Shown here: in pieces, positions 4,770-64,000 of the stretch
Position numbering within the stretch: the stretch's first letter is position 1
Layout: each line of letters starts with the position of its first letter
Program-made: the position numbers and the translations under genes
Assembly: GCA_043228905.1 (NCBI GenBank)
Contig: JBHGNT010000009.1
Span: 8,742,001 to 8,806,000, forward strand
Length of the DNA: 64,000 nt
From: Azolla caroliniana
Lineage: Eukaryota > Plantae > Polypodiophyta
Reading direction: 5' to 3'
Notes under the pieces: generated by a model
Database searches by the model: none
Told to the model about the DNA's origin: nothing
The model's input: the letters and a program-made list of their open reading frames with translations, nothing else

Positions 4770-5841
4770 TGTCGTGAAGATCCGTCACTACGCGCGGATC
4801 GTGAGGCGGAACCGCCGGGGTTCTGGACCGGAAGGATTTAGAGTCGATACAAGCTTTGGCGAGAAAGTACTTAAGATAGATTGGGAAAGAGAGAAGTTTA
4901 GATTAAACGATTGAGAAAGATCGATTGAACTTTTTATTTTTGGATTTAAGAAACAAGTTACACCATCAATTTGATAACAAATTTCTTCTTAATTTCGTAA
5001 TAAAAAAAAACCGTCTTTTTTCTCCTCCCCCTTCCCTCTTTTATAGATGCTCTCATGCATATGATGCATGTGAGGGTACAAGACATGCATAAATTGCATG
5101 TTTGCCATTTGGCGCTTATGTATTACTTGTGGTGCATGATAACCATGTCACTCATTTTAGTTCTCATGTATGAGAATTTACATGTAAAAGTACAATGATA
5201 GGAATATAATTTCAACTAAATAACATGGCTTAATGGTAAGCCAATTGACTCCTAACTTGGAGGTGCAAGGTTTGAATCCTTACTTGCCCTCTTTGTATAT
5301 GTAAATATGTATATATATTTATATATTTATTTATCTAGTCGCCGGACGCCGGTTCGCCGGATGCCGTCGGTTACCGTTGCCGTCGGTTACCGGTGCGTCG
5401 GCGGATACCGGCGCGTCGCCGGATGCCGTCGGATCACCGGCTCCATCGCCGGTCCGGTTTTGGTTGGTCAAAACCCTTTACGAGTAGCTAGCCCACCTCC
5501 ACTCTTAGTTCAAGTTACCTTCAACTCTCTATGCTCCACACATAGACACAAAGATAATATCTTTTGCTCCACCTTATATATGATGAGAGCTGTATTTGTC
5601 GTGCCTATGTGGGATATCTCACAATTTTCTCTTTTCCTTTCACAAACTTTATACCCTCATATCTTGACATTTAGTTGTCCGTTTCTCGTGTAATAAAGTG
5701 TATTCGAAACCTCCATCATTTTGTACTTAGATATTAAATCTATTTAAAATGTTATCTTCACAATTATTGTACTATGTGATTCATACTCGATTTCGTACGT
5801 TTTATGGGATTTTCACACTATTGCCGAAAATCTTCACGGCA
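4770..5841 (-). mobile_element. Solo LTR of the tRNA-Trp-primed gypsy group, inserted in the copia gag zinc knuckle
   Basis: TGTCGTG...CACGGCA termini; 4-bp TSD GCGC/GCAC; removal restores YCGRKRHW; shares U5 motif CCCCGGCGGTTCCGC with related LTRs. Confidence 0.8.
5222..5290 (+). ncRNA. tRNA-derived module (A box, B box) inside the LTR, antisense to the LTR
   Basis: TGGCTTAATGGTAAGCC (D-arm hairpin, A box) ... CTCCTAA ... AGGTG CAAGG TTTGAAT CCTTA (T arm, B box); acceptor stem not intact. Confidence 0.55.
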
Positions 5842-10760: not shown

Positions 10761-11387
10761 TGTCGTGAAGAAAACCGTCCACAAGCGGAATCGGTGCACC
10801 GGAGCGTAGGAACCGGCTCTTCATGCACGTACGCCTTATGTTGTACATAGAAGATCCTAGGTAGGTAGATTCGGTAGGTAGGAAGTTAATGGGAAACGGC
10901 TCCTTCCTTGCCTATAAAAGGAGGGAGACGAGGAGGGGGAAAGGGATCGCGAAGTAAGAGAGGACGAAGTGCTGTCGGATTGTGGGCCGAAGGCTTCTCT
11001 CTCTTCCATACTCCGTAGCTTCTTTCTGTGCAGGTTTCGTGAGGCTCACACTGCTCTAAGGAATGCCCGAGTGCTTCCGGCAGCACCTCCAACCTACTCC
11101 TTTCTTTCTGAGCGTTTGCGAACAGGCATCGGCATCTGTTCGCCGGCTTGTTCGGTTGTAACCGACTTCGTGCTTCTCGTTGTTTGTCTCTGTTAATATA
11201 TACATACATACCTTCGTGTCTCTCTGTGTTGGTTTCCTGCTCGCGTCTTCGTGTCGAAGGGCCGTGTCCCTGTGGATCTACGCTCGCACCTAGTGGGTCT
11301 CTTCCCTTCTCCTTTCTCTCTTGCTCTTCGGTACAAGACCCCCGAGGTCCCGCCTCATTCCACACATCCGCGAGGAATACCTCGACA
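10761..11387 (+). mobile_element. Solo LTR (627 bp) of the tRNA-Trp-primed gypsy group
   Basis: TGTCG...CTCGACA; 4-bp TSD CCGT/CCGT; TATA CCTATAAAAG ~10911; U5 motif CAAGACCCCCGAGGTCCCGC. Confidence 0.85.
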
Positions 11388-18900: not shown

Positions 18901-20329
18901 AGATAGAGAAGTTCGGACTACCCGAGTCAATATGAAGTACAAGACTGTGGATCGGAAAGTGAGGCCAGTCGTGGCACCCTTACCAGAGGACAACTGGGAG
19001 TGAATGAATGGGGTCACGATCGACCCAAGCCTACGAGATCCGGTCGGTATAGGGCACCAGTTCATCGACGAGACACTACGGAAGTTGAAGATCAGTGGGG
19101 GTGGCTTTCTATTGCTGGCGGAGGAAGACCGATTCCAAAGAATGTTCGAATGGCACGAGAAAGCCTTTGCATTCTCGCTGGGGAAGATTGGGTGCATCAA
19201 CTGAACCATCGTCAAACCGATGGTGATATTCACGGTACCGCATGTATCGCGGAACATGAAGCCGATTCTGGTGCTGAGAGCTCACATCCCAAAGCTGATG
19301 GAGCTACTCAAGGAGAAGATTGACATGGGGATCCTTGAACCGTCGAGTGCCCCTTATTCAAATCAGTGGTTCACTTTGTTGAAAAAGAACGACACATTGC
19401 ACTTCATTCAGGACCTGCAACCGATCAACAAGGTGACCATTTGAAATGCAAGAGTTGATCCGATGATCGATGAGTTCACGAAGGCCTTAGTCAAAAGATC
19501 TATCTACTCAGTTGGAGACTTGTATTCCAGGTACAACCAATTCCAACTAGTCGTCGAAAGCAGGGACATAATGACGATGCAGACCCCTCTCGGCTTAGTT
19601 CGGATGTGTACCCTGCCTCAAGGAGGCATGAATTCAATGGCAAACATGGTGAATGCAATAAATAAGGTGTTGAAGGACTACATTCCGGGCATCCGGAGGA
19701 AATGAAAGATGAATCAGTCGAGAGGGATGGATGTTGAAAGTTCGTGGCCGACCACATCGCCGACTACGAGAAGATACCCGGCTAACCTTTTTTGGAGAGA
19801 AGTCAGCTTTCGGGCAGTCAAAGATCGTGGTGGTCAGCTTTCGGACAATATGGTCAGAAACCGTCTCCGACAAAGATCGGGGCCATCTCAGCCATGAAGG
19901 AGGAATGTCGGTTGACCACTGAGGTTCGGTTGTTCTTAGGGGTATGTGCCTTCTACCACATCTGGATCCCACATTATGCACATATTACTGAGTGACTGTA
20001 TGGCTTGTTGAAGAAGAGGTGGAAGTTCAAGTGGACAGAACAACACTCTGAGGCGGTTCGAAGATTGAAGGGGATGTTGACGGCAACACCAGCTCTCTAA
20101 AAAGTGGTATACTGGAAGGACACTCTAATCTATGTGACGGTCGACGTGAGTCCAACCGAAATCAGATGGATAATCAACCAGGAGGATGAAGGCGGAACGA
20201 GATTCGCCATCCGGTTCGGAGTAAAGGTCCTAAGCGAGAAGCAACAAGGATGTGTTGGGATTTCGGTCCCTCCGGATGGGATGTCCCCGGAGATAAATGA
20301 CGGCAAGCCCGGTTGCGGTTACGGAACCG

Positions 20330-20450
20330 GACGATGAAGAGTACCCGGCATGAAGCCGGATGAAGTGTACCCGGATGCGGATCCGGATGATGAAGAGTAT
20401 CCGGATACGGATCCGGATGATGAAGAGTACCCGGATACGGATCCGGATGC
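20330..20450 (+). repeat. ~30-bp tandem repeat in U3 of the copia LTR (also ~25102-25222)
   Basis: GGATGATGAAGAGTAYCCGGATACGGATCC in 3-4 copies. Confidence 0.8.
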
Positions 20451-20940
20451 GGGGACATATTTGTGAATATGTTTGCCAAGGGCCCTTGAGGCTATATTTG
20501 TAAATAGCCCGAAAGTCATATGTGTATAAATATGACTTAGGGCAAACAGTTTATGTTGCTACTCATTTTTTTGTTTTTCCACTCAAGAGGAGTGAAGAGG
20601 AAGCAGCCGAGAGAGAGAGAGAGATAGAGCGAGAGAGAGACGAAGAGGTAGACGCCTCTGTGTATTTCCGCCGCCTGTGGCGAGGACAGCGAGTTCAAGG
20701 TCGTTGCCTTGCAGCTCGCCATTGTATATTTCTCTGTGCATAGTTTGGTTTGGAGTCACGCACTCCCGTGGTTTTTCCCGTATAGGGTTTTCCACGTTAA
20801 TCCCTGTGTATCGCGTCTTTCTCTGTATTTCCTATTTTCTGCTGCATTGATCCGCGATTACTCGGTTGTGGCCGAGCGGAGAAGGTGAATCGAGGACGGT
20901 GATTCCTTACAAACTGGTATCAGAGCGACTGTTGCAGAAA

Positions 20941-23900
20941 ATGGAAGGCGGCGGCAGCGCACAGCCGATGATGATGGTGCTGAATGCACAGAATTACGCC
21001 GACTGGAAGATCAAGATGGAGGATCTTCTGATTGTTCGGGACCTGTACGAACCGATTGACAGGTCGGAAATACCGAAAGGGGTACTTGAGTCAGAGTGGA
21101 AGCTCCTGAACCGGAAAGCCGTAGCGACGATCCGACAATATGTCGATGTAAGCGTCCTACAACACGTGGCGAACGACACCAACGCATACGAGATGTGGAA
21201 GAAGCTGTCGGGCCTCTACGAGAGGAAGAATGCGTTGAATCGGACCTCCCTGATGAGGAAGATAGTGAATCTCAAGTACCGGGACGGCGAGAGTATGGTG
21301 GAACACGTAAGCACGTTCATGGGATTCGTGAATCAGCTTGCGGCGATCAAGTTCCCGTTGGAGGATGCAATGCAAGCCATCATCCTGATGTGTACATTGC
21401 CGGAAAGCTGGGAGAACTTGGTGGTGACTCTCAGCACCTCGTGCACCGAAGATAACTTGTCCTTACAAACTGTAAAGACAAGTATTCTGAATGAAGAAGC
21501 GCGTCGGAGAGATAAGGAACCGGCCTCCGACCCGAAGATGCTGTTTACCGAATCGGATCGGGGAAGACAATGGAACCGGAGTCCGCAAAGACGGGAGAAG
21601 TCGGGGACCCGGTCGCAGTCAAGAGGAAGGCCCACATGCTTCCACTGTGGGAAGCCGGGGCACTTCCGGAAGAATTGTCGGCATTACCGAAAAGACAACG
21701 GAGCCGACGACACCGATTCGAAGAAGTCACCAGAGAGAAACGGTGCATACCGGGGAGCCACGGACCGGAGAGGTTCGGATCGGCAAGGGCAGGACCGGAA
21801 AGGAACAACGGCACTCGCGGCAAGTGAGGAAGAAATCATGCTCATCACCGAAGAAGGTGAGCTAAACGTTGCCGGCGATGAGACGACCTGGGTGGTCGAT
21901 TCCGGAGCATCGTTCCACCTGACCCCGGAGAGAAGATACTTCTCATCCTACACAGCCGGTGAGCATGGCTGTGTTCGGATGGGAAATGAAGGTACGTGCC
22001 GGATTGCCGGCGTAGGAGACGTGTGGTTGACAACCCCGACCGGATGCAAAATGCTGCTGAAGGATGTCCGACACGTTCCGGAGGTTCGACTGAACCTGAT
22101 TTCGGCCGGGAGGCTAGACGATGAAGGCTACACAGGTAGCATCCGGAACGGCGTAATGAAGTTCAGCAAAGGGAGCCTGATAGTGGCTCGGGCCCGGAAG
22201 ATCAACACACTGTACCTGATGAATGCCCGGTTGTGTCCGGAAGAGTTGAACGTGGCAGCCGACACTGCCGGTGAGCTGTGGCACAAGAGACTGTGCCACA
22301 TGAGTGAGAAAGGGATGAAGAGGCTTGCAGAAGACAACCTTATTCCAGTGAAGCATGTGCACCTGGAGAAGTGCACCGATTGCCTGGCCGGTAAGCAGAA
22401 CCGAACCTCTTTCCACTCAAGGCCACCGACGAGACGTGGCGCACCATTGGAGTTGGTGCACACTGATGTGTGTCAGGTAGAAACGAAGTCACATGGCGGA
22501 GCCCAGTACTTCGTAACCTTCATAGATGATCACAGCCGAAGACTGTGGACGGCACCGTTGAAGACAAAGGACCAAGTGTTGTCCGTCTTCAAAGAACTCC
22601 ATGCAAGAGTGGAAAGAGAATCCGGCAAGAAGCTGAAAGCGATACGAGCGGATAACGGAGGGGAATACCGGGGGCAGTTCCAGGAGTACTGTCGCTCGAA
22701 GGGAATCCGACTCGAGTTTACTGTGCCGAAGACGCCGGAACTGAACGGGCTGGCCGAGAGGATGAACCGGACCATAATGGAGAGGGTCCGGAGTATGCTG
22801 GCGCATGCGAAATTACCCAAGGGATTTTGGGCTGAGGCAATGTCGACGGCGACATATGTGATAAATAGATCACCCTCAGTACCTTTGGACGGAGACACGC
22901 CGCAGAGAGTGTGGACCGGTAGGGAAGTATCCTACCGGCATCTGAAGGTGTTCGGGTGTCTCGCATATGTGCATGTGGCAAAGGACCGGAGAGGAAAGCT
23001 AGATCCAAAGACCCGTCCATGCATATTCCTCGGTTACGGCGACGACGAGTTCGGCTACCGAGTGTGGGACCCGGTCGACAAGAAGATATTCAGGAGTCGT
23101 GATATCATCTTCATGGAGGACAAGACACTCGCCGACTGGGAGTCGGAGAAGAAGATGAAGAGCTCCAAGTCGACCGGTGAGAATCAACTCTACGAGGAGC
23201 AGTCCCGACCGGCAAGGGACCGGTTAGCACTCGAGGATCCGGCCGAAGACGGTGAAGAAACAGAACCGGCCGAAGAAGATGAAAATGATACCGGAACCGG
23301 CCCCGATCCCGAAACGGATTCGGATGAAGAAGAATCGGAAGAACCGGTTACCGAAGCTCCGGAACGGAGATATCCTCTAAGAGAGAGAAGGGCCCCCCGG
23401 AGATTTCCGGAACCAGAGCACGTGCTGCTAACCGACGAGGGGGAGCCGGAGAGCTTTGAAGAAGCAAAGCATGACACCAAGAGCCGCAGGTGGTTGAGTG
23501 CCATGCAGGACGAGATGGATTCCCTGCATGAGAACCACACATATGAACTTGTGGAGTTGCCGAAAGGAAAGCGGGCACTTCGAAACAAGTGGGTGTTCAA
23601 GCTGAAACCGGGAGATGCCGGAAACCCCTCGAGATACAAAGCCAGGATCGTGGTGAAGGGGTTTCAGCAGAAGAAGGGCGTCGACTTCGACGAGATATTC
23701 GCCCCGGTAGTGAAGATGACCTCCATTCGGACGGTGCTGAGCATAGCGGCAAGCATGGACCTCGAGGTAGAACAGATGGACGTGAAGACGACATTCCTTC
23801 ACGGTGACCTCGAAGAAGAGATATACATGCAGCAACCGGAAGGATTTGAGAAGAAAGGGAAGGAGCACCTGGTATGCCGGTTGAAGAAGAGCCTTTACGG

Positions 23901-25014
23901 ACTGAAGCAGGCTCCCCGGCAATGGTACCGGAAGTTTGACTCCTTCATGACCGACGAAGGGTACCTCAAAACGCAGTCCGACCACTGCGTGTTTGTGAAG
24001 AAGTTCGAAGGAGGAGACTTTCTAATACTCCTCCTGTACGTGGACGACATGTTGATCGTCGGACGGGACCAGGTCAAGATACGGATGCTGAAGAAGGCTC
24101 TTCACCGAACCTTCTCAATGAAGGACCTGGGTCAGGCGAGGCAAATATTAGGGATGCACATCATCCGGGACCGGAAGAAGAAGCAGTTGTGGCTGTCACA
24201 GGAGAAGTACGTGACGAAGGTGCTTCACCGGTTCAACATGTCGGAGGCAAGACCGGTCGGATCGACCCTCCCGGCAAACTGCAAGCTGTCCAGCAAGCAA
24301 AGCCCCAAGACAAAGGCTGAAAAGGAGGATATGATGAAAGTGCCGTATGCCTCAGCCGTCGGGAGCTTGATGTACGCCATGGTGTGTACGAGACCGGACA
24401 TCGGATATGCAGTCGGAGTGGTGAGCCGGTACATGAGCAATCCCGGCAAAGAGCATTGGAACGCGATCAAGTGGATACTCCGATACCTGAAGGGCACAGC
24501 GAATGTGTGCCTCCGATTCGGCTCCGGTAAACCCGAACTCGACGGTTTCACCGATTCGGATATGTCGGCTGATGTAGATACCAGCCGGTCCACGTCAGGG
24601 TATGTGATGACGTATGCAGGGGGAGCCGTTTCGTGGCAGTCGAGGCTGCAGAAGACGGTTGCGTTGTCAACCACGGAGGCGGAGTACATGGCAGCTGTTG
24701 AAGCCGGCAAGGAAGTAATATGGATGAAGGACTTCATTAGAGAGCTCGGTATCCGGCAGGAGGAGTACCGACTCTACTGCGACAGTCAAAGTGCAATCCA
24801 CCTTGCGAAGAACGCGGCCTATCACTCCCGGACGAAGCACATCCAGCGAAGATATCACTGGATCCGGGAAAGGATAGAAGACAAGGAGTTCGTGCTGACA
24901 AAGATCCACACGGACGAGAACGGGTCGGATATGCTGACCAAGGTGCTCAAACCCGACAAGCTGGAAGCATGCCGGAAGAGGATCGGATTGGAGAGACATC
25001 CCATGCCGAAGTGA
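20941..25014 (+). CDS. gag-pol: Copia Gag-Pol polyprotein (gag, CCHC knuckle, PR, INT, RT, RNase H), uninterrupted
   Basis: First ATG after the PBS; CFHCGKPGHFRKNC; WVVDSGASFH; WHKRLCH..CTDC; VHTDV, IRADNGGEY, GLAERMNRT; YVDDML; FTDSD, TEAEY, YCDSQSAI. Confidence 0.97.
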   Translation: MEGGGSAQPMMMVLNAQNYADWKIKMEDLLIVRDLYEPIDRSEIPKGVLESEWKLLNRKAVATIRQYVDVSVLQHVANDTNAYEMWKKLSGLYERKNALNRTSLMRKIVNLKYRDGESMVEHVSTFMGFVNQLAAIKFPLEDAMQAIILMCTLPESWENLVVTLSTSCTEDNLSLQTVKTSILNEEARRRDKEPASDPKMLFTESDRGRQWNRSPQRREKSGTRSQSRGRPTCFHCGKPGHFRKNCRHYRKDNGADDTDSKKSPERNGAYRGATDRRGSDRQGQDRKGTTALAASEEEIMLITEEGELNVAGDETTWVVDSGASFHLTPERRYFSSYTAGEHGCVRMGNEGTCRIAGVGDVWLTTPTGCKMLLKDVRHVPEVRLNLISAGRLDDEGYTGSIRNGVMKFSKGSLIVARARKINTLYLMNARLCPEELNVAADTAGELWHKRLCHMSEKGMKRLAEDNLIPVKHVHLEKCTDCLAGKQNRTSFHSRPPTRRGAPLELVHTDVCQVETKSHGGAQYFVTFIDDHSRRLWTAPLKTKDQVLSVFKELHARVERESGKKLKAIRADNGGEYRGQFQEYCRSKGIRLEFTVPKTPELNGLAERMNRTIMERVRSMLAHAKLPKGFWAEAMSTATYVINRSPSVPLDGDTPQRVWTGREVSYRHLKVFGCLAYVHVAKDRRGKLDPKTRPCIFLGYGDDEFGYRVWDPVDKKIFRSRDIIFMEDKTLADWESEKKMKSSKSTGENQLYEEQSRPARDRLALEDPAEDGEETEPAEEDENDTGTGPDPETDSDEEESEEPVTEAPERRYPLRERRAPRRFPEPEHVLLTDEGEPESFEEAKHDTKSRRWLSAMQDEMDSLHENHTYELVELPKGKRALRNKWVFKLKPGDAGNPSRYKARIVVKGFQQKKGVDFDEIFAPVVKMTSIRTVLSIAASMDLEVEQMDVKTTFLHGDLEEEIYMQQPEGFEKKGKEHLVCRLKKSLYGLKQAPRQWYRKFDSFMTDEGYLKTQSDHCVFVKKFEGGDFLILLLYVDDMLIVGRDQVKIRMLKKALHRTFSMKDLGQARQILGMHIIRDRKKKQLWLSQEKYVTKVLHRFNMSEARPVGSTLPANCKLSSKQSPKTKAEKEDMMKVPYASAVGSLMYAMVCTRPDIGYAVGVVSRYMSNPGKEHWNAIKWILRYLKGTANVCLRFGSGKPELDGFTDSDMSADVDTSRSTSGYVMTYAGGAVSWQSRLQKTVALSTTEAEYMAAVEAGKEVIWMKDFIRELGIRQEEYRLYCDSQSAIHLAKNAAYHSRTKHIQRRYHWIRERIEDKEFVLTKIHTDENGSDMLTKVLKPDKLEACRKRIGLERHPMPK

Positions 25015-26784
25015 AGGGGGAGTTTGTTGGGATTTCGGTCCCTCCGGATGGGATGTCCCCGGAGATAAATGACGGCAAGCCCGGTTGCGGTTACGGAACC
25101 GGACGATGAAGAGTACCCGGCATGAAGCCGGATGAAGTGTACCCGGATGCGGATCCGGATGATGAAGAGTATCCGGATACGGATCCGGATGATGAAGAGT
25201 ACCCGGATACGGATCCGGATGCGGGGACATATTTGTGAATATGTTTGCCAAGGGCCCTTGAGGCTATATTTGTAAATAGCCCGAAAGTCATATGTGTATA
25301 AATATGACTTAGGGCAAACAGTTTATGTTGCTACTCATTTTTCTGTTTTTCCACTCAAGAGGAGTGAAGAGGAAGCAGCCGAGAGAGAGAGAGAGATAGA
25401 GCGAGAGAGAGACGAAGAGGTAGACGCCTCTGTGTATTTCCGCCGCCTGTGGCGAGGACAGCGAGTTCAAGGTCGTTGCCTTGCAGCTCGCCATTGTATA
25501 TTTCTCTGTGCATAGTTTGGTTTGGAGTCACGCACTCCCGTGGTTTTTCCCGTATAGGGTTTTCCACGTTAATCCCTGTGTATCGCGTCTTTCTCTGTAT
25601 TTCCTATTTTCTGCTGCATTGATCCGCGATTACTCGGTTGTGGCCGAGCGGAGAAGGTGAATCGAGGACGGTGATTCCTTACAGGATGCGCCTAAGTTAA
25701 GCGCGAATTGTGGGGTATCGTTTCGGCAGTTAAGGCCAACAAAGATTACCTAATCGACAAAGAAGTAATCATCGAGACAATCTGCCTGTCGATTCTCGAT
25801 ATGGTTTCCAGATGCATGACTCCAGAATTGGCGATGCTCAGGTGGATCGCGTACATTAAGTCCCTCACCCTAAAGATATCGTACATCTCCAGGAAAGACA
25901 ACTCCATTGCCGACATGCTATCAAGAGCACGGTACAACAACGAAGACGCCATGGTATTGGAAGATGAAGAAGTCGGTGTGGACTTCTTCAAGTCGACTCG
26001 GTTGTCGGCAAATGGGCACAACACTCCGACCCTGCACAAGTTCAACGAGGAAGATTACAACAGGGAGAGGCTTCGGATAGGACGGTTCCTGAGCTCGATG
26101 ACAACGAATGCATCGGAGACCAAGGAAGAGGTGAGTCAGATCTGAAAGAAGGCATACAAGTTCTTCCTGAGGGATGGTAAGATATGGCATCATCCAAAGA
26201 AGCTAAATGGCAGACCACTCCGGGTGGTGATGCGAGCGAAAGACTAGTCAATGCTGATATCAAAGTTTCGTGAGAGTCCCTGGTCCGGACATCGGCGAAC
26301 ATGGGCGACGTTTGAGAAGCTGAAGGGAAAGTACTGGTGACCAGAAATGTACGGGGATGTCACCACTTCGTGTTGACATGCGAGAGCTGCCAAATGCACT
26401 CGGTAGTTTGGCACCGCGACAAGCTGCACTTACCCATCGACCATTCAATTCAAATGGATGGTCAATTTAGTAGACGATGCAGATGGGGGTGGGGTAGATG
26501 CGGTACTTGGTGCTAGCAAGAGAAGATCTGACGAACCAGGTAGAGGGCCGAGCCTTGCCAAACAAGAGTACCGCAACCATGTGTTGATTCCTGATCGAGG
26601 ACGTGATATGCCAATACGGGTGCGTCAGGAAAATCATAGCCAACCAAGGGCTGTTGGATGCGCAAGACGCCGAGGAGTTGTTCAACCGACTAGGGGTCAA
26701 GCTTTCCCTCACAACGGTGTACAATACGGAGGCGAATGGGAATGTCGAGCGCGAACATGGGCACTCGTGAAGAGGATTGTAAGG

Positions 26785-27965: not shown

Positions 27966-28008
<43 letters not shown>

Positions 28009-32385: not shown

Positions 32386-32390
32386 TTAAA

Positions 32391-33010: not shown

Positions 33011-33732
33011 TGTCGTAGTGTATTTCGTACACTACGTGAAAAAGTAAAAATAATATAACCGATTTAATTACATATAAATAAATAAAATAAGAATATCAAG
33101 ATATTTATCACGTGCATAGGGCAAGATTCGAACCTTGTACCTCCATGTAGCCAAACCTCAACTTTACCATTATGCTACCTTATCTTTAGTGCTCTATGAA
33201 TAGATTAATAACTATAAGTTCTTTATTTGCGCCTACCTTTATTAAAAGGTAAATCATGCATTTTTAGAGTGCGTGAATATTTTATAGAAAAACGCAAGCA
33301 ACTAAAAAGTGACTCATGCACATCTAGCGTGCATGAGCACTATATTTAGCAAATAAAAGCAAGGATTAGAAAAGCATCACATGCACATTTAGTGTGCATG
33401 AACATATTAGAAAAAAGCATGTAGCTATGCTTAGTCTCTCCCATCACTATATAAGGATGGGGAGCACATTGTAGTTTTTGTTGATTATTTTTCTATAATG
33501 ATCAATCAATCTAAAATATTCGTGGGATTCACGAATTTGCTAAAATAATTCTCTCTTACTACCTAAATATTGACTAAATATACTAAACTCGTGGGATTCA
33601 CGAGATTCTTATCTTATAACTCTTTATACCTATTCTTTACTAGCCTTATTTGTATTTTTCTTTCTCCTAGTCCAAAACCCCGGTGGTTCCCACCCGACTC
33701 ACGCAAACGATCCGGAGCCGAAAGGCACGACA
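33011..33732 (+). mobile_element. Solo LTR (722 bp), close relative of the LTRs at 57085/62807
   Basis: TGTCGTAGTGTATT...GGCACGACA; 4-bp TSD TCGT/TCGT; colinear homology to 57085-57791. Confidence 0.93.
33111..33185 (-). ncRNA. tRNA-derived module antisense in LTR U3
   Basis: Minus strand GGTAGCATAATGGTAAAG...GGAGGTACAAGGTTCGAATCTTG (A box, B box). Confidence 0.55.
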
Positions 33733-52446: not shown

Positions 52447-52496
<50 letters not shown>

Positions 52497-52499
52497 CTA

Positions 52500-53442: not shown

Positions 53443-53489
<47 letters not shown>

Positions 53490-55653: not shown

Positions 55654-55780
55654 TGTCGTGATGTGGCATGTCTAGTGCGAGAAAAACTCAAAAATTGAGG
55701 ATCCACACACATTTCACGAATACTTGTAAAAATGAAAATAAATAAACCTAGGTCACAATGGCATTGAGTGCATGTAGAGG

Positions 55781-55850
55781 GTTGCAAGTAGGATTTGAAC
55801 CTTGCACCTCTAAGGAAAGAGGCAATTACCTTACCACTAAAGCTACTACT
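55781..55850 (-). ncRNA. tRNA-derived module antisense in LTR U3
   Basis: Minus strand GTAGCTTTAGTGGTAAGG...AGAGGTGCAAGGTTCAAATCCT. Confidence 0.55.
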
Positions 55851-57185
55851 AAGTGTTGTAGATGTTCTGTATTTCTTTCTCATATTCAGTATTCCGTAGG
55901 AAACAAACGAACAAAACCGTGTACACAAAACCACGGTTTTAAGCTCATGGTTTCCTACATGTCACAAAGCAAAACGGTGTGCACAAAAACCATGGCTCCA
56001 AGCCCATGGTTTTGTGCATGGACAAACCTATAAAACCCCTAGTACGGCTTGTGTAAGGGGGGGCTCAATATGATATGACCATCATCATCACCATCAATAA
56101 TATAAGCTTCTATTTCTTCTTCTTCGCATCTATCTTGTAATTATTTATCTACTTCTCAAAGTGTACAATCTTCAATCTTCTCAAGTGTAATAGGTCTTCC
56201 TCCAATCTTACAGTCACATCGTCCTCTTCTCAATACCTTGACGGACATCCTCCTTGGTCCAAGACCCCGGTGGTCCCGCTCAAGCGAAGCACGCTCGCAC
56301 ACGCATCTTCGCGACATTTCGCGACGTGAACGAGGCGGTAGGAAGGATCAAGTCGAGATTAATACTTGGAGATGGCATCCTCAAGCAACCAAGCGGGAGA
56401 GCTCGAAAGGATGATGCTAATCGTCGAGCAAATGATGAGATCTCGGGACAACGACGCGAGCGTGGAGAAGGTTGTCGATCGTGTCGTAGAGCTCGAGGGC
56501 CAATTCGATGGAAGGAACGTTACGAAGTTCCTTGATGCATATAAGAGGGAGAGGAATCAGAGGGACGTGTCCGAGGCACGTCAAATCGCAAGCTTCAAGA
56601 GAGTTGTCGCCAACAACATCCAAAGACGCGTCATCGAGCTTCAAGAAGGTAAGACAACATGGTCCGAGTTCGAGAAAACGATACTAGCGGAGTTCGTGAC
56701 TGAAGACTCAACGAGGATGACTCGACATGCCCTGATGAAGTGGATAGAGAAGAAGAATAAGAAGATGAGCGTCTCGAGGGTGTACGACGAATTCGACCAG
56801 ATGTTTAGTCGTCTCCCCAATACGGACCAAGTGTTGCTTGAAGAGGACAAGACTTTGTACTTCTTGAAGGCCGTGGACTTAAAGGATAGACGGGAGTTGG
56901 GGACTCTTCTCGAAGATGATACCCAAGCAAATGGGCTCGTAGCGGACTGGATCGCAGTGAAGCGGGCATGCAATAGGCTCGACAAGCGTCGCCAATGGGT
57001 TGATGACACCGACTTGACAGGACCGACTACCACGGAGAAAGCAAGACCGCCGAAAGTAGCTAAGCCGCCGAGACAAAGTAACGTTGTCGTAGTGTATTCC
57101 ACACACTACGTGAAAACCATAAAATAATATATCCGATTTTAGATACATATAACTAGATAAATAATATGTCAAAAAAATTTATCAA

Positions 57186-57258
57186 GTGCATAGGGCAAGA
57201 TTCGAACCATGCACCTCCACATAGATAAACCCCAACTTTACCATTGTAATAACTTATC
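57186..57258 (-). ncRNA. tRNA-derived module antisense in LTR U3 (copy at ~62908-62980)
   Basis: Minus strand TTACAATGGTAAAG...GGAGGTGCATGGTTCGAATCTTG followed by a T7 run (57171-57177). Confidence 0.5.
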
Positions 57259-57831
57259 TTTAGTGTTATAAATATAGATTTAATACATATAAGACCTTTA
57301 TTTACACATACCTTTATTAAAAGGTAAAAATCATGTATTCTTTAGAGTGTGAATATTTTATTTACACGTGACATTAAAAGTGACTCATGCACATCTAGCG
57401 TGCATGAGCCCTATATTTAGGAAATGACAAAGCATCACATGCACATTTAGTGTGCATGGACACTTTAGGTAAAAAAGCATGAAGCCATGCTTAGCCTCTT
57501 CCATCTTTATATAAGGAGGAGAGAAATATGTATATGGTTGTTGATTAATATACAAGGGGATTGATCAATCTAATATATTCGGGGGGATTCACGAATTTTG
57601 CCATCTAATTGCTCTTATAATCTAAATATTGTTTTAATTACACTAAACTCGTGGGATTCACGAGATTGCTATCTTACTTCTCTTTCCACTATTCATAACT
57701 GGCCTTAAGTTGTATTCCTCTTCCTCCTAGTCAAAAACCTCGGCGGTTCCCACCCGACTCACGCAACGATCCGGAGCCGAAGGGCACGACACAGTTGGTG
57801 AACCCGACGTGAAGCACCGGGTGGCAAGGAG

Positions 57832-59874
57832 ATGGAAAATCAACCGGAGGCTAGCAACATGATGATGATGTTCGAGCGCATCCTACAAGAACAACGCGCG
57901 ATGTCAGAGATAGCGGCATCAGTGGAGCGGCTCGTGCAACGAAACGGACAATTCAACGGGAAAGACGTGTCGCGGTATCTTCGGGACTACAAGGCGGAGA
58001 TGCTACGGTGCGGAATATCGGAAGGACTGCAAGTGACGTCCTTCAACCGGGTGGCGACCGACGGGCTTCAAGCAAGCATCCATGGGCTACGACAACAAAA
58101 TCCGACATGGGAGGCGTTTGAAGAAGAGCTAAAGAGGACGTTCGCCATCGAGGATTCCTCCAAGGCGACGCGAAGGGGGTTCAAAGATTGGGTGGAGACG
58201 CCGGACAAGGGATTGAAGGTCGTTGATGTGTTTTCGGCATTCGAAAGCCGGTTCGGGAGGTTGTCCGCGAGAGATCAAGCTATCCTCATACCGGACAAGG
58301 TAATCATGTTCTTGCGAGCCGTGGACGTCCGGGACCGGAAAGATCTCGGAGTGCTCTTGGAGGACACGACCACGGAGAGCGGGCTCACCGAAACATGGGA
58401 AAGCGTGCGGGATATCGTCGCGCGATACACGAAGAGGGGGCAATGGCTTGCCAACGAGGAAAAGAGGGTTTCGGAACCGATTCCGAAACCGAGAACCGGA
58501 TTGGAAGACCATCAACCAAGGGCTCGGGAGACTACAACCGAGAAGGGAATTGATGCATCTACGGTGGAGCAACTATTGAAGGAGATGGAGAATCTGAAGA
58601 TCGCGATGGTGAAGAAGTCGGATGACCGCCCCACAAGCTCCAAGTATACGGATCGACGGTGCATATGGTGCGATAGCGCCGAACACGATCGGAGGGATTG
58701 CGATGAGCATAAGGAGGCGCTACGGCGGGATCTCATCTACTACGAGGGAAACCGGATTCATTCGATGGACTCTCGGAAGCCACTCCGACCGAACTTCCAG
58801 AAAGGCGGCATGAAGAAGGTGCTCGAGGAGGAATTGGCGGCAATAAGCAACTATGCGACAACCGCGGGAATATGTGTCGGGGAGTCATCGAGAGCAAAGA
58901 CGTCTTTTTGGCCGGAAGTTCTAGAAAACACCGAGAAAACCGACTCCAACGAGATCCGAAGCACCGCGGAAGGCGTCCGGGAAGCTACGGGATGGGAGTG
59001 CCCTGTCGACAAGAATAGCGTATATGCCCTGTGTCAATTGCATAAGGTGTATGTGGACGAGAAACGACGACGCACGGAGGATGCGGCCGGGCCATCGAAG
59101 ATACCGGAAAGTTGGAACTCCGGAGGTAAGGGAAAAGAAAAGGCGACTCCGGCATTCAAGCTCGCCTCGGACATAGAACAACAAACCGACTTGAAAAGAG
59201 TGTTCGAGGAAAGAATCTTGGATAGCCGGGTAGATTTCTCGCTTCGGGAGCTACTCGGAATAGCAAAGAAGGAGTTCCACGATCTTCTCGTGGATCTCGT
59301 GAAGCGAAAAAGACAAAGTACGGAGGAAAATGCTCCAAGGGTGAATGCGAACACCGTTTTAATGAACGACACCGAAGCGGAGGACGAAATTCCGAACTCC
59401 CACTATACAAGGCCACATTGGGCACGCGCGACTACGGAGACTCCGGTCCGAATCGGCAACATCAAAGAACCCGTGCTAGCATTGATTGATCACGGATCGG
59501 AGATCAACTTGATGTCCAAGGAGTTCTACCGGAAGGGGAAGTGGCCTATTAACACCAACCATGGATGGAAGATTCGGGCGGCCACCAAAGCAACGGAAGA
59601 TCTATTTGCGGCTTGTCCGGATGTGACGGTGAAGATCGGGGATGTCGAGATCAAACAAAATTTCTTCGTGCAAGATGAGGTTTCACATTCCGTCATCCTC
59701 GGCCAACCCTTTATCACGGCATCACGGATGGAGACGAAGGTGCTTGATAGCGGTGCGGCTTTTGCGCGAATTCGGAGCCAAAACGGTGGGAAATCCGTCC
59801 AATTCCTAACGGTGCCGGCAAATCACGAAAGGAACAAGAGGGAACTCTTGTCCCAAGTGAGAATGGATTTTTAA
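57832..59874 (+). CDS. gag-pro: Gypsy Gag-protease ORF (680 aa)
   Basis: GQFNGKDVSRYL; CIWCDSAEHDRRDC knuckle; ALIDHGSEINL and VILGQPF protease motifs. Confidence 0.93.
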   Translation: MENQPEASNMMMMFERILQEQRAMSEIAASVERLVQRNGQFNGKDVSRYLRDYKAEMLRCGISEGLQVTSFNRVATDGLQASIHGLRQQNPTWEAFEEELKRTFAIEDSSKATRRGFKDWVETPDKGLKVVDVFSAFESRFGRLSARDQAILIPDKVIMFLRAVDVRDRKDLGVLLEDTTTESGLTETWESVRDIVARYTKRGQWLANEEKRVSEPIPKPRTGLEDHQPRARETTTEKGIDASTVEQLLKEMENLKIAMVKKSDDRPTSSKYTDRRCIWCDSAEHDRRDCDEHKEALRRDLIYYEGNRIHSMDSRKPLRPNFQKGGMKKVLEEELAAISNYATTAGICVGESSRAKTSFWPEVLENTEKTDSNEIRSTAEGVREATGWECPVDKNSVYALCQLHKVYVDEKRRRTEDAAGPSKIPESWNSGGKGKEKATPAFKLASDIEQQTDLKRVFEERILDSRVDFSLRELLGIAKKEFHDLLVDLVKRKRQSTEENAPRVNANTVLMNDTEAEDEIPNSHYTRPHWARATTETPVRIGNIKEPVLALIDHGSEINLMSKEFYRKGKWPINTNHGWKIRAATKATEDLFAACPDVTVKIGDVEIKQNFFVQDEVSHSVILGQPFITASRMETKVLDSGAAFARIRSQNGGKSVQFLTVPANHERNKRELLSQVRMDF

Positions 59875-59928
59875 AGCGGACTGTTGCGGAGTGGGGAAGT
59901 GATAGTCCGAGAAGCCCTGATACCCCAC
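59865..59928 (+). promoter_or_regulatory. Predicted -1 ribosomal frameshift signal (slippery heptamer plus H-type pseudoknot)
   Basis: G GAT TTT just before TAA; 5-nt spacer; stem CGGACTGTTGC/GTGATAGTCCG; loop GTGGGG pairs with CCCCAC 59923-59928; -1 frame is open into pol. Confidence 0.75.
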
Positions 59929-62806
59929 ACAGGAAGAAAACTCTCGGAGCAAAACATGTACGAATCGGTCCGGATGGGGCATCTACGTACACGACCGTAA
60001 CCGGAGGATTGAAGAAAGGATACCGACAAGTGGAGGATAAGTTGCGGTCGGCATCAATAATAAAAGAAGATGAAGAAATCGTGGGGATAGTCGAAGAAGT
60101 GTTCTATGAGAGCACGCTACAACGACTTGAAGAGCTTGCGGAAGATAAAAGCCAAGGGAACCGGGTAGTTCCGGTGGAATCGGTCGAGATGTACGAGATC
60201 ATTGCGAAAATGGAGCCGGATACGCTCCGCAAAGAAGAAGCAATGGTAAGTACGAAATACAAGACCGTGGAGAAGAAGGTGAAACCGGCCGCGGGACCAC
60301 TACCCGCCGATAGCGAACAAAAGAGGAAAGAAGTCTCGGGAGATCCGACACTTCGGAAGACCGTGGATATCGGACATGCCTTCACGGATGAGACCCGGAA
60401 GAAACTTCGGATCGGTGGAGGTGGGTTCCTATTACAAAAAGAAGAAGAATGGTTTCGCGAGATGTTGGAGCAACACGGCAAAGCGTTTGCATTTACATCA
60501 AGGGAGATAGGGTGCGTCGATCCGAGAATAGTGGAGCCGATGGTGATCTTCACGATTGACCATGTACCGTGGAACCTGAAGCCGATTCCGGTGCCACGAG
60601 CACATATTCCGAAAGTCATTGACTTGCTCAAGGAGAAGGTGGCGATGGGGATTCTAGAGCCATCAACTGCTCCGTACTCAAATCGATGGTTTACGGTTCC
60701 GAAGAAGAATGGGTCACTCCAATTTATCCAAGACTTGCAACCGGTGAATAAGGTCACGATCCGGAACTCGGGAGTCGGTCCGATAGTGGACGAATTTGCG
60801 GAAGCTTTTGCCAGTCGTGCGATATACTCCATCGGAGACCTATACTCGGGGTATGACCAATTCCAACTAGCCGTGGAGAGCCGAGACATCACAACCATGC
60901 GAACACCGATAGGATTAGTCCGAATGTGCACACTACCACAAGGAGCAACAAACTCGGTTGCTCATATGATGAACGCGATGAACAAGGTGCTTCGAGACTG
61001 CATTCCGGAGATAACGATGCCGTTCCTCGATGACATTCCGATGAAAGGATGCGCGGTAGAAGAAAAAGATGAGACTATGGATGATCAGGGATGCCAAAAG
61101 TTCGTGGTCGACCATATTTATGATTGTGAGAAAGTGTTGCGAAAGCTAGAAGATGTGCACCTAACACTTTCCGGGGAGAAATCGGCATTCGGGCAAGAAG
61201 AAATATTGGTGGTCGGACATCTATATGGGCCCTACGGCCGAAGACCGTCACCAACAAAGATCGATGCGATTCAAGCTATGAAGGAAGTATGCGAGTCAAC
61301 ATCCGAAGTCCGAAGGTTTCTCGGTGCATGTGCATTCTATCACATATGGATTCCGCACTATGCACATATAGCGGACCCGCTCTACCACTTGTTGCGGAAA
61401 GGTAAGAGATTCGAATGGAAACCGGAACACACCAAAGCCATGAAGAAATTGAAGAAGACACTTCGGAGGGCGGAAGCACTTAAGAAGCCGAGCTATGACC
61501 GACCGATTATAGTAACGGTTGATACAAGTCCAACCGGTATCGGGTGGGTCATCAATCAAGCCGACTCGGATGGTTCGCGGTATCCGATCCGATTCGGAGC
61601 AAAGGTTCTCAACGAAAGGCAACGTGGATATGCACAAGTCAAAAGAGAACTGTGGGGAGTCGTGTCGGCGATAAAATCGGATCGGGATTATTTGATCGGA
61701 GCCGAAGTGGTGATCGAGACGGATTGTCTTCCGATACTCGGGATGATGCGGTGTTGTACGATACCGGATGTAGCTATGGTAGGTGGGTTGCATATGTCAA
61801 GTCGCTTAATCCGGAGGTTCGACACATCTCGGGGAAGGACAACGCGGTAGCGGATATGTTATCAAGGGCTCGGTTCGGAGACGACATAACCGAATCGGAT
61901 AATGAAGAAGTTTCCGAAGACTACTTCGCGTCGGAGCACATATGCCGAGTAAACGTAATCCGAGAATTCCGGGAAGAAGAATACGAGGGAGAAAGCTTGA
62001 TGATCGGAAAGATGTTACAAGAGGCCGAGGATTCAACAAACGATAAAGGAAGAAGAGCTGAGATCCGAAGGAAGAAGAGGCAAGTCCAAAAGTTCTTCTT
62101 GGAAAACGGATTAATATGGAGGGCGCCGAAAAGACTGGATGGTATACCACTTCGAGTAGTCGGGACAAAAGAGCAACAAGACCGGATAATGTCCGAGTTT
62201 CACGGATCCGATTGGGCTGGACACCGAGGAACATGGGCAACATTTGTGAAGATCAAGCAAAAAATTGGTGGAAGAAAATGTACAAAGATGTCGCGGAGTT
62301 CACGGAAAGCTGCGAGAAATGTCAAGTCTACTCCGGGGTTCGACATCAAGATGAGTTACATCTGACACAAAGCACCGACTACGACCGAGGAGGATTGAAG
62401 AAGGAGACTGGGTGATCGTCTATGACAGTAGTTTGGACCATCAACATACAACGATGCGGAAATTTGCGAAAAGGTGGTTCAGGCCATACGAGGTTCGGAA
62501 AGTCTTCGACAACGGAACGTACCGACTGTCCGAGTTGGATGGAACAATACTACAAGTGCCTATAGCCGGGAAGCGGGTGAAGATTTTCAAGAAGCGGACC
62601 AACGACAAACCCTATGTGATCCAAGCCAAGGCCGACAACGAGGAGCAATCGGACGAAGACCACGGTGATGCGGGAAGCGAAGAAAGTGAATTACAACTCA
62701 TAGTCGACATAAGGGGAGAATCGGAGGAAGCTTTGGGTGAAGACGGATATGGGGAATCGAGAACTTCGGCACATACCGGAGGATGTGCGGGTTCGGAGGG
62801 GGCGAG
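59865..62806 (+). pseudogene. pol: Gypsy pol (RT-RNase H-partial integrase) with frameshifts at ~61780 and ~62265 and no DDE core
   Basis: YSIGDLYSGYDQF, LPQGATNSV, PFLDDI (RT); VTVDTSPTGIG, KRELWG, IETDC (RH); H..H..CEKC finger joined directly to GDWVIVYDS..RWFRPY. Confidence 0.9.
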
Positions 62807-64000
62807 TGTCGTAGTGTATTCCACACACTACGTGAAAACCATAAAATAATATATCCGATTTTAGATACATATAACTAGATAAATAATATGTCAAAAGAAT
62901 TTATCACGTGCATAGGGCAAGATTCGAACCATGCACCTCCACATAGATAAACCCCAACTTTACCATTGTAATAACTTATCTTTAGTGTTATAAATATAGA
63001 TTTAATACATATAAGACCTTTATTTACACATACCTTTATTAAAAGGTAAAAATCATGTATTCTTTAGAGTGTGAATATTTTATTTACACGTGACATTAAA
63101 AGTGACTCATGCACATCTAGCGTGCATGAGCCCTATATTTAGGAAATGACAAAGCATCACATGCACATTTAGTGTGCATGGACACTTTAGGTAAAAAAGC
63201 ATGAAGCCATGCTTAGCCTCTTCCATCTTTATATAAGGAGGAGAGAAATATGTATATGGTTGTTGATTAATATACAAGGGGATTGATCAATCTAATATAT
63301 TCGGGGGGATTCACGAATTTTGCCATCTAATTGCTCTTAGAATCTAAATATTGTTTTAATTACACTAAACTCGTGGGATTCACGAGATTGCTATCTTACT
63401 TCTCTTTCCACTATTCATAACTGGCCTTAAGTTGTATTCCTCTTCCTCCTAGTCAAAAACCTCGGCGGTTCCCACCCGACTCACGCAACGATCCGGAGCC
63501 GAAGGGCACGACAACGTGGAAGAGAAGAAGATTGATGACGACATCATTGAAGAGCTAGCGAAGAAGTTCGAGAAGGTCACGCTAGCCAACATGAATCGTC
63601 GGGGCCCTAAGGGAAAAGAACCCTTTAGATGCGTGTGGTGCGATAGCATGGACCACATGAGAAGGGATTGTGCGAGCCTTCGAGAGGCGATTCGACAAAA
63701 TATTGTATACATAGAGGACAACATTATCTGCTCAAGCGAGACTAGAAGACCCCTACGGGTGAATTTCGGAAGAGGAGGAATGAAGAAATCTATGGAGGAT
63801 GTCGATGCGACTCATGTGGATGCGATGCACTATGCTGCGTCGGTCGGAATAAGAGTCGGGAAAGACAAGACTGAAGCTGCTAGAGCGGGAGCAAAGTTTT
63901 GGACTTCCGTTCTCGAATATGAGAAGAAGGGAAAAATCACATCGAACGAGGTAGAGCTTGCGGACCGAAGCGTGCAAAGCATAACTGGGTGGTCGGATCC

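What the first reader, a model, noticed from the sequence alone, without database searches (positions are those of the whole stretch)
57085..63513. Candidate under-described retrotransposon system: Trp-primed, CG-targeting, CWG-depleted gypsy with a Pol III module
Seen together in one young element: tRNA-Trp PBS, 4-bp CG-centred TSD, antisense tRNA-like U3 module, near absence of CAG/CTG with abundant CG, frameshift signal between protease and RT, RT motif PFLDD, no chromodomain, and insertion into the gag of a relative. Inference: a strategy built around host DNA methylation, inserting at CG in other elements, avoiding CHG silencing and insulating its promoter. It may correspond to a named non-seed-plant lineage (Selgy/Phygy-type), which I cannot verify.
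Basis: inference. Interest (0 to 1): 0.78.

Follow-up and report, generated by a model that had tools for sequence, protein, structure and literature searches.

The report
Phygy retrotransposon with hidden frameshift switch
This is a broken copy of a known jumping-gene lineage of seedless plants (Phygy), but it and its relatives carry three features I did not find described for that lineage: a conserved signal that likely shifts the ribosome's reading frame between protease and reverse transcriptase, a tRNA-promoter-like box pair in the terminal repeats, and a loss of CAG/CTG triplets that likely reflects selection against host DNA methylation at those sites.

Summary
The element (57085-63513) is real and young (LTRs 704/707 identical) but defective: two 1-nt deletions and a 655-nt deletion remove the integrase core. 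It is a REXdb Phygy element. The RT core is about 77% identical to Phygy-1 without gaps (by eye). Phygy is already described as 4-bp NCGN target, tRNA-Trp primer and no extra domain, and its references carry MPFLDD.

Not found in my searches:
(1) GGATTTT plus a covarying pseudoknot between protease and RT; pol lies in the -1 frame in 49 of 52 related junctions.
(2) An A-box/B-box pair at tRNA spacing (32-33 nt in 21 of 21 hits), with no cloverleaf, in the LTRs of about half the families and in either orientation.
(3) CWG loss even where deamination cannot remove it silently (6/104 vs 89/185; sister families show none), with CCG/CGG in its place. Total CHG is only about 26% down.

The traits do not travel as one system. 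Coding CWG avoidance does not track the module (4/11 vs 4/10). LTR CWG poverty does track it, but not significantly once kinship is counted. Insulation and silencing escape are untested.

The parts
57081..57084 (.). 5' target-site duplication ACGT (NCGN type)
57085..57791 (+). 5' LTR, 707 nt, TG...CA; 704/707 identical to the 3' LTR; 1 CWG vs 13 expected
57198..57251 (-). A-box (57251-57241) and B-box (57208-57198), 32 nt apart, antisense, about 260 nt upstream of the TATA-like box; no cloverleaf; copy in the 3' LTR at about 62920-62973
57508..57514 (+). TATA-like box (inferred Pol II promoter)
57796..57813 (+). Primer-binding site, 18 nt; tRNA-Trp by recall and by the Phygy table; same site in 33 of 80 related loci
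57832..59874 (+). gag-protease ORF, 680 aa, intact: zinc-knuckle-like CxxC at 58660, DUF4100, aspartyl protease motif at 59488
59865..59874 (+). Slippery heptamer G_GAT_TTT followed by the gag-PR stop codon
59878..59928 (+). Predicted H-type pseudoknot: stem 1 59878-59885/59901-59908, stem 2 59891-59896/59923-59928
59871..61780 (+). pol in the -1 frame: linker, RT (core from 60696, MPFLDD at 61017) and RNase H; no archaeal-type RNase H hit; ends at a 1-nt deletion near 61780
61781..62793 (+). Broken integrase: zinc-binding part, 1-nt deletion near 62263, 655-nt deletion after about 62362 relative to L001 (catalytic core absent), SH3-like tail, no chromodomain
62794..62806 (+). Polypurine tract
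62807..63513 (+). 3' LTR
63514..63517 (.). 3' target-site duplication ACGT
55654..57080 (+). Host element of the same lineage: 5' flank GCGT, LTR 55654-56316 with its own antisense A/B boxes (55844-55791), degenerate PBS, gag interrupted by the insertion and continuing at 63518-64000
33011..33732 (+). Solo LTR of a close family, TSD TCGT/TCGT, antisense A/B boxes, 0 CWG vs 13 expected
4770..5841 (-). Solo LTR of a related family inside a copia-like gag region (assignment by eye), TSD GCGC/GCAC, antisense A/B boxes
10761..11387 (+). Solo LTR of a related family, TSD CCGT/CCGT, no A/B boxes, 12 CWG vs 20 expected
16173..26780 (+). Old decayed element of the same lineage (5' flank CCAT, same PBS near 17062, no A/B boxes), split by a copia insertion at about 20253-25683; 3' end lost

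Best explanation
This is a recently inserted, defective copy of a Phygy-lineage Ty3/gypsy retrotransposon whose intact relatives likely make Gag-protease by normal translation and RT-RNaseH-integrase by a pseudoknot-stimulated -1 frameshift, while this family has likely been selected to swap CAG/CTG for CCG/CGG under host CHG methylation and to keep an A/B-box pair predicted to bind TFIIIC. Shown from sequence: the lineage, the anatomy, the NCGN target and the defects. Also shown: conservation and covariation of the frameshift signal, conserved boxes at fixed spacing without tRNA fold, and CWG loss by non-deamination changes. Inferred, with my odds: (a) ribosomes shift -1 at G_GAU_UUU, so protease is made at Gag level and RT/integrase at a few per cent to tens of per cent (0.85). 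(b) CWG loss in the coding region is selected rather than only mutational (0.75); the pressure is escape from CMT-type silencing (0.5) or avoidance of hypermutable sites (0.4). (c) The boxes act as a DNA element that binds TFIIIC and helps keep the U3 promoter open (0.45), rather than as an RNA gene or a relic. (d) The integrase reads the CG bases directly, with no need for methylation (0.6). (e) This copy was mobilised in trans or broke on or after insertion. These are separate, patchily distributed traits laid on a known lineage, not one fixed system.
For: Lineage: the 175-aa RT core differs from REXdb Phygy-1 at 40 positions without gaps (by-eye count against PMC11963269 supplement 2; length); Selgy and Ogre references look unrelated by comparison. 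The Phygy table gives 4 bp NCGN, Trp 81%, no extra domain, ORF layout ND. Target: 5 of 6 lineage insertions in the window have NCGN (p about 1e-6 at CG frequency 0.0465); so do 5 of 5 flanks in loci and 1 RNA flank. Frameshift: 49 of 52 junctions are in -1 register and 47 of 52 have GGATTTT. In 26 sequences, 89% of cells pair and 11 of 14 pairs change on both sides (1/500 shuffles; slid controls 39-48%). G_GAU_UUU is a known shift site of pea enation mosaic virus (PMC5009743 passages). CWG: Ser/Pro/Thr/Ala codons end in A/T before G in 6/104 vs 89/185 elsewhere (OR 0.07), Gly/Val control OR 1.03, sister families OR 1.07-1.91. At such sites L001 has CCG/CGG in 18/23, 16/20 and 16/21 cases where sisters have CWG. 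TAG is not avoided. In P. patens CHG silences more strongly than CG, and CCG methylation depends on MET while CWG is controlled by CMT alone. Boxes: 21 hits in 471,079 bases, 0 in reversed sequence, all 32-33 nt apart (28-37 allowed), spacer divergent. LTR CWG O/E median 0.15 with boxes (n=15) vs 0.53 without (n=13).
Against: No function was measured. The pseudoknot was derived from these same sequences, lies in a coding frame, and stem 2 is modest row by row (22/25 own vs 310/600 cross pairings with 5 or more pairs); the single-sequence fold has z -1.66. Two copia ORFs in the window also show OR 0.40-0.48 without other CWG loss, so part of the signal is a general bias. CWG sites change C-to-T more often than CG (9/68 vs 77/1944, sites reused across branches), and AT-rich stretches are CWG-poor, which fits hypermutability as well as silencing. 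Total CHG is still 0.74 of expected. The module-LTR link has only 4 independent pairs (about 3 the same way, 0 the other way, p 0.25), and GC content differs too (p 0.007). The module is missing from many families and is sense-oriented in 4 hits. The host lineage is unresolved, so moss methylation data are an analogy. The lineage call is by eye, not by a tree that holds REXdb sequences.
Confidence: 0.6

Rival explanations
1. CWG loss is about mutation, not silencing. Methylated CWG is the most mutable context in this host, so copies with CWG at non-silent positions die faster and the family drifts to CCG/CGG. Expression is unaffected.
For: C-to-T at CWG 9/68 vs CG 77/1944. AT-rich stretches have CWG O/E 0.19-0.42, below CG 0.42-0.58. 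Most families show the deamination-type loss (few CAG Gln and CTG Leu codons). Domb et al. attribute loss of symmetric sites in moss TEs to deamination.
Against: Sister families in the same sample set keep CWG at protected sites (OR 1.07-1.91). Non-coding LTRs of several families are almost CWG-free at normal CG (L018 1/44 with CG 1.1; L021 0/34), where protein damage cannot be the pressure.
Confidence: 0.35
2. The A/B boxes are a relic of tRNA-derived SINE insertions, or a U3 cassette passed between LTRs by recombination, with no present role.
For: Patchy presence (5 changes on a 23-row RT tree), both orientations, sometimes two or more copies per LTR. In L043 the stretch is replaced by a short tandem array relative to its sister L040.
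Against: Boxes and 32-33 nt spacing are kept while the spacer and the tRNA stems are not. 20 of 21 hits lie in LTR stretches, and none elsewhere in the window reach the threshold. I noticed no SINE tail or own TSD in the alignments, though I did not search for them formally.
Confidence: 0.3
3. The boxes drive a short Pol III transcript (as in Cassandra or Helenus) that regulates the element, or that attracts small-RNA methylation and so speeds CWG loss in those LTRs.
For: Pol III boxes in LTRs are proposed or shown to drive transcription in Helenus and Cassandra (PMC10886601 passages and section 15). T-runs follow the B-box in the window copy. CG O/E is slightly lower in module LTRs (p 0.056).
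Against: The usual orientation is antisense, so it cannot make the genomic RNA; the orientation varies, which suits a DNA element better than an RNA product. The U3 is AT-rich, so T-runs arise easily.
Confidence: 0.2
4. One reading: one co-adapted system in which CG targeting, CWG depletion, the Pol III module, Trp priming and the frameshift evolved together around host methylation.
For: All traits co-occur in this family (window, L001, L002, L007). In the window, the four LTR types with boxes are CWG-poor and the two without are not. Module LTRs are CWG-poorer across families.
Against: Target, primer and frameshift are lineage-wide, while CWG avoidance and the module are patchy and independent in the coding region (4/11 vs 4/10; Spearman 0.03 between LTR and coding measures). 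Insertion into other elements is expected in a window made mostly of TEs.
Confidence: 0.12
5. pol is reached by splicing or re-initiation (as shown for Ogre) rather than by frameshifting.
For: A GAG-PROT / RT-RH-INT split is known in Ogre (intron) and Retand (stop codon). Riccia gene models join the two ORFs into one protein.
Against: The ORFs overlap with no spacer; heptamer, 5-6 nt spacer and pseudoknot are conserved out to a relative at 54% RT identity (L065).
Confidence: 0.07

Closest known systems
Ty3/gypsy non-chromovirus|Phygy (REXdb; Neumann et al. 2019, PMC6317226: passages, section 13 and supplementary file 3 read; reference RTs seen in PMC11963269 supplementary file 2)
   Same: RT core about 77% identical without gaps, including MPFLDD; 4-bp NCGN TSD; tRNA-Trp PBS; no chromodomain or aRH; short internal region filled by coding sequence.
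   Different: REXdb lists the ORF layout as not determined and mentions no frameshift signal, LTR boxes or CWG bias. An intact version of this family would be about 7.1 kb, below the listed 7.7-10 kb (relatives L009, L018, L026 fall inside). On by-eye comparison the P. patens references look closer to the Riccia proteins than to this family.
TatI (REXdb)
   Same: 4-bp TSD and tRNA-Trp PBS.
   Different: TatI has an archaeal-type RNase H between protease and RT; none was detected here.
Selgy (REXdb)
   Same: Non-chromovirus of a seedless plant, 4-bp TSD.
   Different: tRNA-Ala PBS, overlap between GAG and PROT rather than after PROT, about 5 kb, and a very different RT.
Ogre and Retand
   Same: GAG-PROT in one ORF and RT-RH-INT in another.
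   Different: Separated by an intron-bearing spacer (Ogre) or a single stop codon (Retand), not by a -1 overlap; no plant lineage in the table lists a PROT/RT overlap as its prevailing layout.
-1 programmed frameshift at G_GAU_UUU (pea enation mosaic virus; PMC5009743 passages) and retroviral pro-pol shifts (HTLV-1 in the same review; MMTV recalled)
   Same: Same heptamer, nearby stop codon, 3' structure; shift placed between protease and RT.
   Different: Here in a plant retrotransposon. [quoted passage not shown]
Helenus and Cassandra TRIMs (Kojima 2024, PMC10886601: passages and section 15 read)
   Same: Small-RNA-derived Pol III promoter boxes in LTRs, conserved at the boxes without a working tRNA fold.
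   Different: Those are tiny non-autonomous elements thought to be transcribed from the boxes. Here the boxes sit in U3 of full-length coding elements, mostly antisense, upstream of a TATA-like box.
CG-rich, CHG-poor moss LTRs (Gypsy-11, Copia-2; Domb et al., 10.1101/2020.03.04.971267: abstract start and passages read)
   Same: CG enriched and CHG depleted near the promoter; loss of methylatable sites proposed as a way to escape silencing.
   Different: Explained there by deamination. Here the coding-region loss includes A-to-G and T-to-C type replacements that deamination cannot make, and it is specific to CWG.

Membership tests
Phygy | RT sequence groups with REXdb Phygy | tested here: met
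   By-eye count: 135 of 175 positions identical to Phygy-1, no gaps; Selgy and Ogre references clearly unlike.
Phygy | Formal RT-RH-INT phylogeny with REXdb references (DANTE/TEsorter) | not testable with these tools
   No REXdb sequence was available to the tools; no Physcomitrium-named protein was among the 120 listed hits of each of three searches. Trees hold only loci and database proteins.
Phygy | 4-bp TSD, NCGN | tested here: met
   ACGT/ACGT; 5 of 6 window insertions and 5 of 5 locus flanks NCGN.
Phygy | tRNA-Trp PBS | tested here: inconclusive
   An 18-nt PBS is present and shared by 33 of 80 loci. The Trp identity is recalled; no tRNA gene was found in 151 prokaryotic/viral loci with the motif.
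Phygy | No extra domain (chromodomain, aRH) and no extra ORF | tested here: met
   Pfam on 7 window pieces and 7 related proteins: none.
Phygy | Size 7.7-10 kb (descriptive) | tested here: inconclusive
   6429 nt here, about 7.1 kb with the deleted part; relatives about 7.7-8.8 kb by LTR coordinates.
Selgy | tRNA-Ala PBS; GAG overlapping PROT-RT-RH-INT; Selgy-type RT | tested here: not met
TatI | aRH between PROT and RT | tested here: not met
   No RNase H hit in the about 130-aa linker.
Chromovirus Tcn1 | Chromodomain, 5-bp TSD, self-priming | tested here: not met
Helenus/TRIMp3 | Non-coding miniature element with a tRNA-derived promoter in the LTR | tested here: not met
   Full gag-pol present; boxes mostly antisense.
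tRNA gene | Cloverleaf fold | tested here: not met
   ARAGORN 0 genes; no Rfam tRNA hit; anticodon stem 1 of 5 pairs in the window copy, anticodon position variable among 18 copies.
-1 programmed frameshift signal | Slippery heptamer, 5-9 nt spacer, 3' pseudoknot, -1 overlap | tested here: met
-1 programmed frameshift signal | Measured frameshift product | not testable with these tools
   Needs a reporter assay or ribosome profiling.

The most novel reading that the evidence does not exclude
Autonomous Phygy retrotransposons have repeatedly evolved a purely cis-encoded defence against the plant CMT/CHG pathway: a swappable TFIIIC-binding cassette in U3 that goes with CWG-free promoters, and in some families selective recoding of the whole coding region from CWG to CCG/CGG. 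All of it sits on a lineage-wide pseudoknot-driven protease/RT frameshift that one subclade may have retuned to -2.
Probability: 0.25. Interest if true: 0.75.

Novelty: new variant of a known kind. Interest (0 to 1): 0.5.

Why it matters
It fills a stated gap: the reference classification leaves Phygy's ORF layout undetermined, and these data point to a conserved -1 frameshift between protease and RT, a layout not listed for any plant lineage in that table. It also gives a clean natural test of whether transposons are selected to shed methylation targets. Sister families at about 82% RT identity differ about tenfold in CWG at positions where deamination cannot act silently, and P. patens cmt/met/dnmt3 mutants exist to test recoded reporters. 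If the A/B boxes bind TFIIIC, they would be a Pol III-factor element used by a coding, Pol II-type plant retrotransposon. The target preference, primer and RT motif are already known and add nothing new.

Tried and rejected
Sources that gave nothing: no whole genome is held for this window, so there are no copy-level counts. ARAGORN and Rfam found no tRNA or other RNA family in the module. The search for a tRNA ending in the PBS complement in bacterial and viral collections gave only matches without a tRNA gene. The ESM Atlas gave only generic RT clusters. Three homologue searches named Riccia, Adiantum, Ceratopteris, Calypogeia and a Smittium protein, but no Physcomitrium protein among the listed hits; cluster look-up gave no useful names. 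I looked for a host gene in 27400-33000 by ORF listing only and recognised none, so the host lineage is open.

Reads: no RNA holder was listed. PolyA reads of a same-label species gave about 10x sense cover of gag from a 90-95% alike copy, almost none over pol and under 1x over the module; polyA data cannot show a Pol III RNA. Contigs laid on the LTR start mostly extend into the CG of the flank, but matching flanks are favoured by the method, so I do not count this.

Trees: the careful tree did not finish; the quick tree was used. RNAalifold on the first frameshift alignment recovered only stem 1.

Rejected ideas: splice-acceptor avoidance as the cause of CAG loss, because TAG is not avoided and CTG is; a plain CG-dinucleotide preference, because the Gly/Val control OR is 1.03; a host-wide effect alone, because copia ORFs and an old copy in the same window have CWG O/E 0.67-0.83.

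Rows dropped: for the LTR comparison I used 28 LTR stretches and left out near-duplicates and stretches with unknown start or short cover (L003, L006, L010, L012, L016, L020, L022, L024, L029, L031, L037, L039, L044, L062); some kept stretches are partial.

Literature: ten searches found no description of the frameshift, the boxes or CWG-specific avoidance in Phygy. The library lacks most subscription papers, REXdb per-element files were not held, and bioRxiv supplements (Domb et al.) were closed and may bear on which moss families are CHG-poor.

Full report
Observation. The element spans 57085-63513 with 707-nt LTRs that differ at 3 positions, a TSD ACGT, an 18-nt PBS and a polypurine tract. 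gag-protease is one intact 680-aa ORF. pol starts in the -1 frame at GGATTTT just before the gag-protease stop. Against its nearest intact relative L001 (93% DNA identity) this copy lacks one base near 61780, one near 62263 and 655 bases after about 62362. Window-specific changes are mostly silent (70 silent, 15 not), so its lineage was under purifying selection until recently. It sits in the gag of a related element whose two flanks read in one frame.

Lineage. The reference classification (PMC6317226; passages, section 13 and supplementary file 3 read) defines Phygy as 4-bp TSD, 100% NCGN, tRNA-Trp in 81%, no extra domain, ORF layout not determined. REXdb Phygy RT references are printed in a supplement of PMC11963269. 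By eye, the window's 175-aa RT core differs from Phygy-1 at 40 positions without gaps, about 77% identity, and shares MPFLDD; Selgy and Ogre references are unlike it. TatI also has a 4-bp TSD and Trp primer but needs an aRH domain, which is absent. Named homologues are from the liverworts Riccia and Calypogeia and the ferns Adiantum and Ceratopteris; the closest are unnamed metagenome contigs at 76-97%. Phygy is reported in a liverwort genome (passages) and as a nested element (passages). The host is probably a seedless land plant; I could not tell which group.

Target site. Six insertions of this lineage lie in the window; their flanks are ACGT, TCGT, CCGT, GCGC/GCAC, GCGT and CCAT. Five of six are NCGN (p about 1e-6) and the sixth is one transition away. 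Five of five flanks in related loci and one RNA flank are NCGN too. This confirms the known preference. Whether the CG must be methylated, and whether other elements are preferred, cannot be told: the window is mostly transposon DNA.

Frameshift. Of 80 related loci (many are near-duplicates from one set of samples), 52 cover the protease-RT junction. pol is in the -1 register in 49 of them, and GGATTTT is present in 47 (41 by script; five more, one). Six bases downstream lies a stem whose loop pairs with a later stretch. On 26 aligned sequences, 89% of cells pair, 11 of 14 pairs change on both sides (1 of 500 shuffles as high), and slid controls give 39-48%. The signal persists in L065 at 54% RT identity. 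Caveats: the structure was read from these sequences, the stretch also codes, stem 2 is modest row by row, and the single-sequence fold has z -1.66. G_GAU_UUU is a known viral shift site, and the same review notes that by 2003 only +1 layouts were known in plant elements (passages). The REXdb table lists GAG-PROT/RT splits only by a stop (Retand, Ogre) or a spacer (Ogre). Distant proteins at 40-42% identity, one fungal, hold protease and RT in one annotated protein. I infer a programmed -1 shift that makes protease at Gag level and RT-RH-INT at a lower level. L014 and L015 have AG_GTT_TTT, a 5-base spacer and the +1/-2 register, a possible switch to a -2 shift (resemblance to arterivirus sites recalled, untested).

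A/B boxes. The module is not a tRNA. A scan of 471,079 bases (window and 80 loci) for an A-box and B-box 28-37 nt apart gave 21 hits and none in reversed sequence. All are 32 or 33 nt apart, the spacing of a tRNA gene, with the boxes conserved and the spacer not. Twenty lie in LTR stretches: 16 antisense, 4 sense; one (L063) is unplaced. Many families lack it, and it changes state 5 times on a 23-row RT tree. In L043 a tandem array takes its place relative to sister L040. This looks like a promoter-box DNA element under constraint. The nearest precedent is Helenus/Cassandra, which are non-coding miniatures. TFIIIC binding and barrier activity are inferences; barrier activity of TFIIIC sites in other organisms is recalled, not read here.

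CWG. Internal CWG O/E is 0.22 and CG 1.27, but CCG/CGG are 1.4-fold enriched and total CHG is 0.74. The whole window is CWG-poor (0.6; AT-rich stretches 0.19-0.42), yet two copia ORFs are at 0.82-0.83. Among relatives, RT-region CWG O/E runs from 0.04 to about 1.0. To separate mutation from selection I counted Ser/Pro/Thr/Ala codons followed by G, where a CWG cannot be removed silently by C-to-T change. They end in A/T in 6 of 104 cases, against 89 of 185 before other bases (OR 0.07); the Gly/Val control is 1.03. L001 and L002 give 0.10, sisters L003-L006 and L016 give 1.07-1.91, and a separate clade (L019, L026) gives 0.19-0.27 (tree). Where sisters have such a CWG, L001 mostly has CCG or CGG (18/23, 16/20, 16/21). 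Copia ORFs give 0.40-0.48, so a weaker general bias exists. CWG also mutates faster than CG here (9/68 vs 77/1944), so the selected benefit may be less silencing or less mutation. In P. patens CHG silences more strongly than CG, CWG methylation is controlled by CMT alone and CCG depends on MET (passages), which makes a shift from CWG to CCG a plausible escape. CG-rich, CHG-poor LTRs and loss of sites as an escape route are already in print, explained by deamination.

Co-occurrence. Coding CWG avoidance does not track the module (4 of 11 with, 4 of 10 without) or LTR CWG content (Spearman 0.03). LTR CWG content does track the module: median O/E 0.15 in 15 LTRs with it, 0.53 in 13 without (p 6e-5, kinship ignored). 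On 4 independent pairs about 3 go the same way and none the other way (p 0.25), and GC content also differs.

Verdict. A defective member of a known lineage, with three features that ten literature searches did not show described for it. The frameshift is the best supported; selected CWG recoding is the most useful for an open question; the boxes are the least understood. Earlier notes of this scan held nothing on this element; those on the same genome concern other families and disagree on moss or fern. Novelty: new variant of a known kind; interest 0.5.

Noticed in passing
L014:2836-2905 and L015:2498-2567: Subclade with AG_GTT_TTT, a 5-base spacer and the same pseudoknot, but pol in the +1/-2 register: a possible natural switch from -1 to -2 frameshifting.
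   Followed up: partly
L014:6340-7400, L048:3015-4047: These LTRs hold A/B-box pairs on both strands, and more than one antisense copy.
   Followed up: partly
L043:6861-7579 vs L040:6617-7277: Sister families with near-identical LTR ends, in which the box module is replaced by a short tandem array; U3 looks like a swappable cassette.
   Followed up: partly
window 4770-5841: Solo LTR that looks mosaic: its module region matches L009 and its end matches L026/L019.
   Followed up: partly
window about 13672-15962: Non-coding LTR-bounded element with a 48-nt tandem array (14690-15505) and a partial antisense B-box near each LTR start; no tRNA PBS seen.
   Followed up: no
window 9745-10760: Three tandem copies of a unit of about 434-443 nt, ending where the solo LTR at 10761 is inserted.
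   Followed up: no
window 20253-25683, about 39230-44590 (minus), about 36900-46360: Young copia elements with near-identical LTRs; one is nested in an older copia, one in the old Phygy copy. Their ORFs keep CAG/CTG codons.
   Followed up: partly
window 56317-56335: The host element's primer site is degenerate: only the inner part matches the family PBS.
   Followed up: no
window 52454-53758: Long inverted repeat (arms of 262 nt at 96% plus shorter arms) around a 241-nt centre; possibly a MITE or hairpin locus.
   Followed up: no
window 57800-59250 (runs X21, X22): PolyA reads of a related copy cover gag in sense at about 10x and stop before protease; may be a truncated copy or a short gag transcript.
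   Followed up: no
L011, L032, L034, L038, L042, L048, L059: Contigs with an LTR shared between the end of one element and the start of the next: tandem elements or assembly loops.
   Followed up: no
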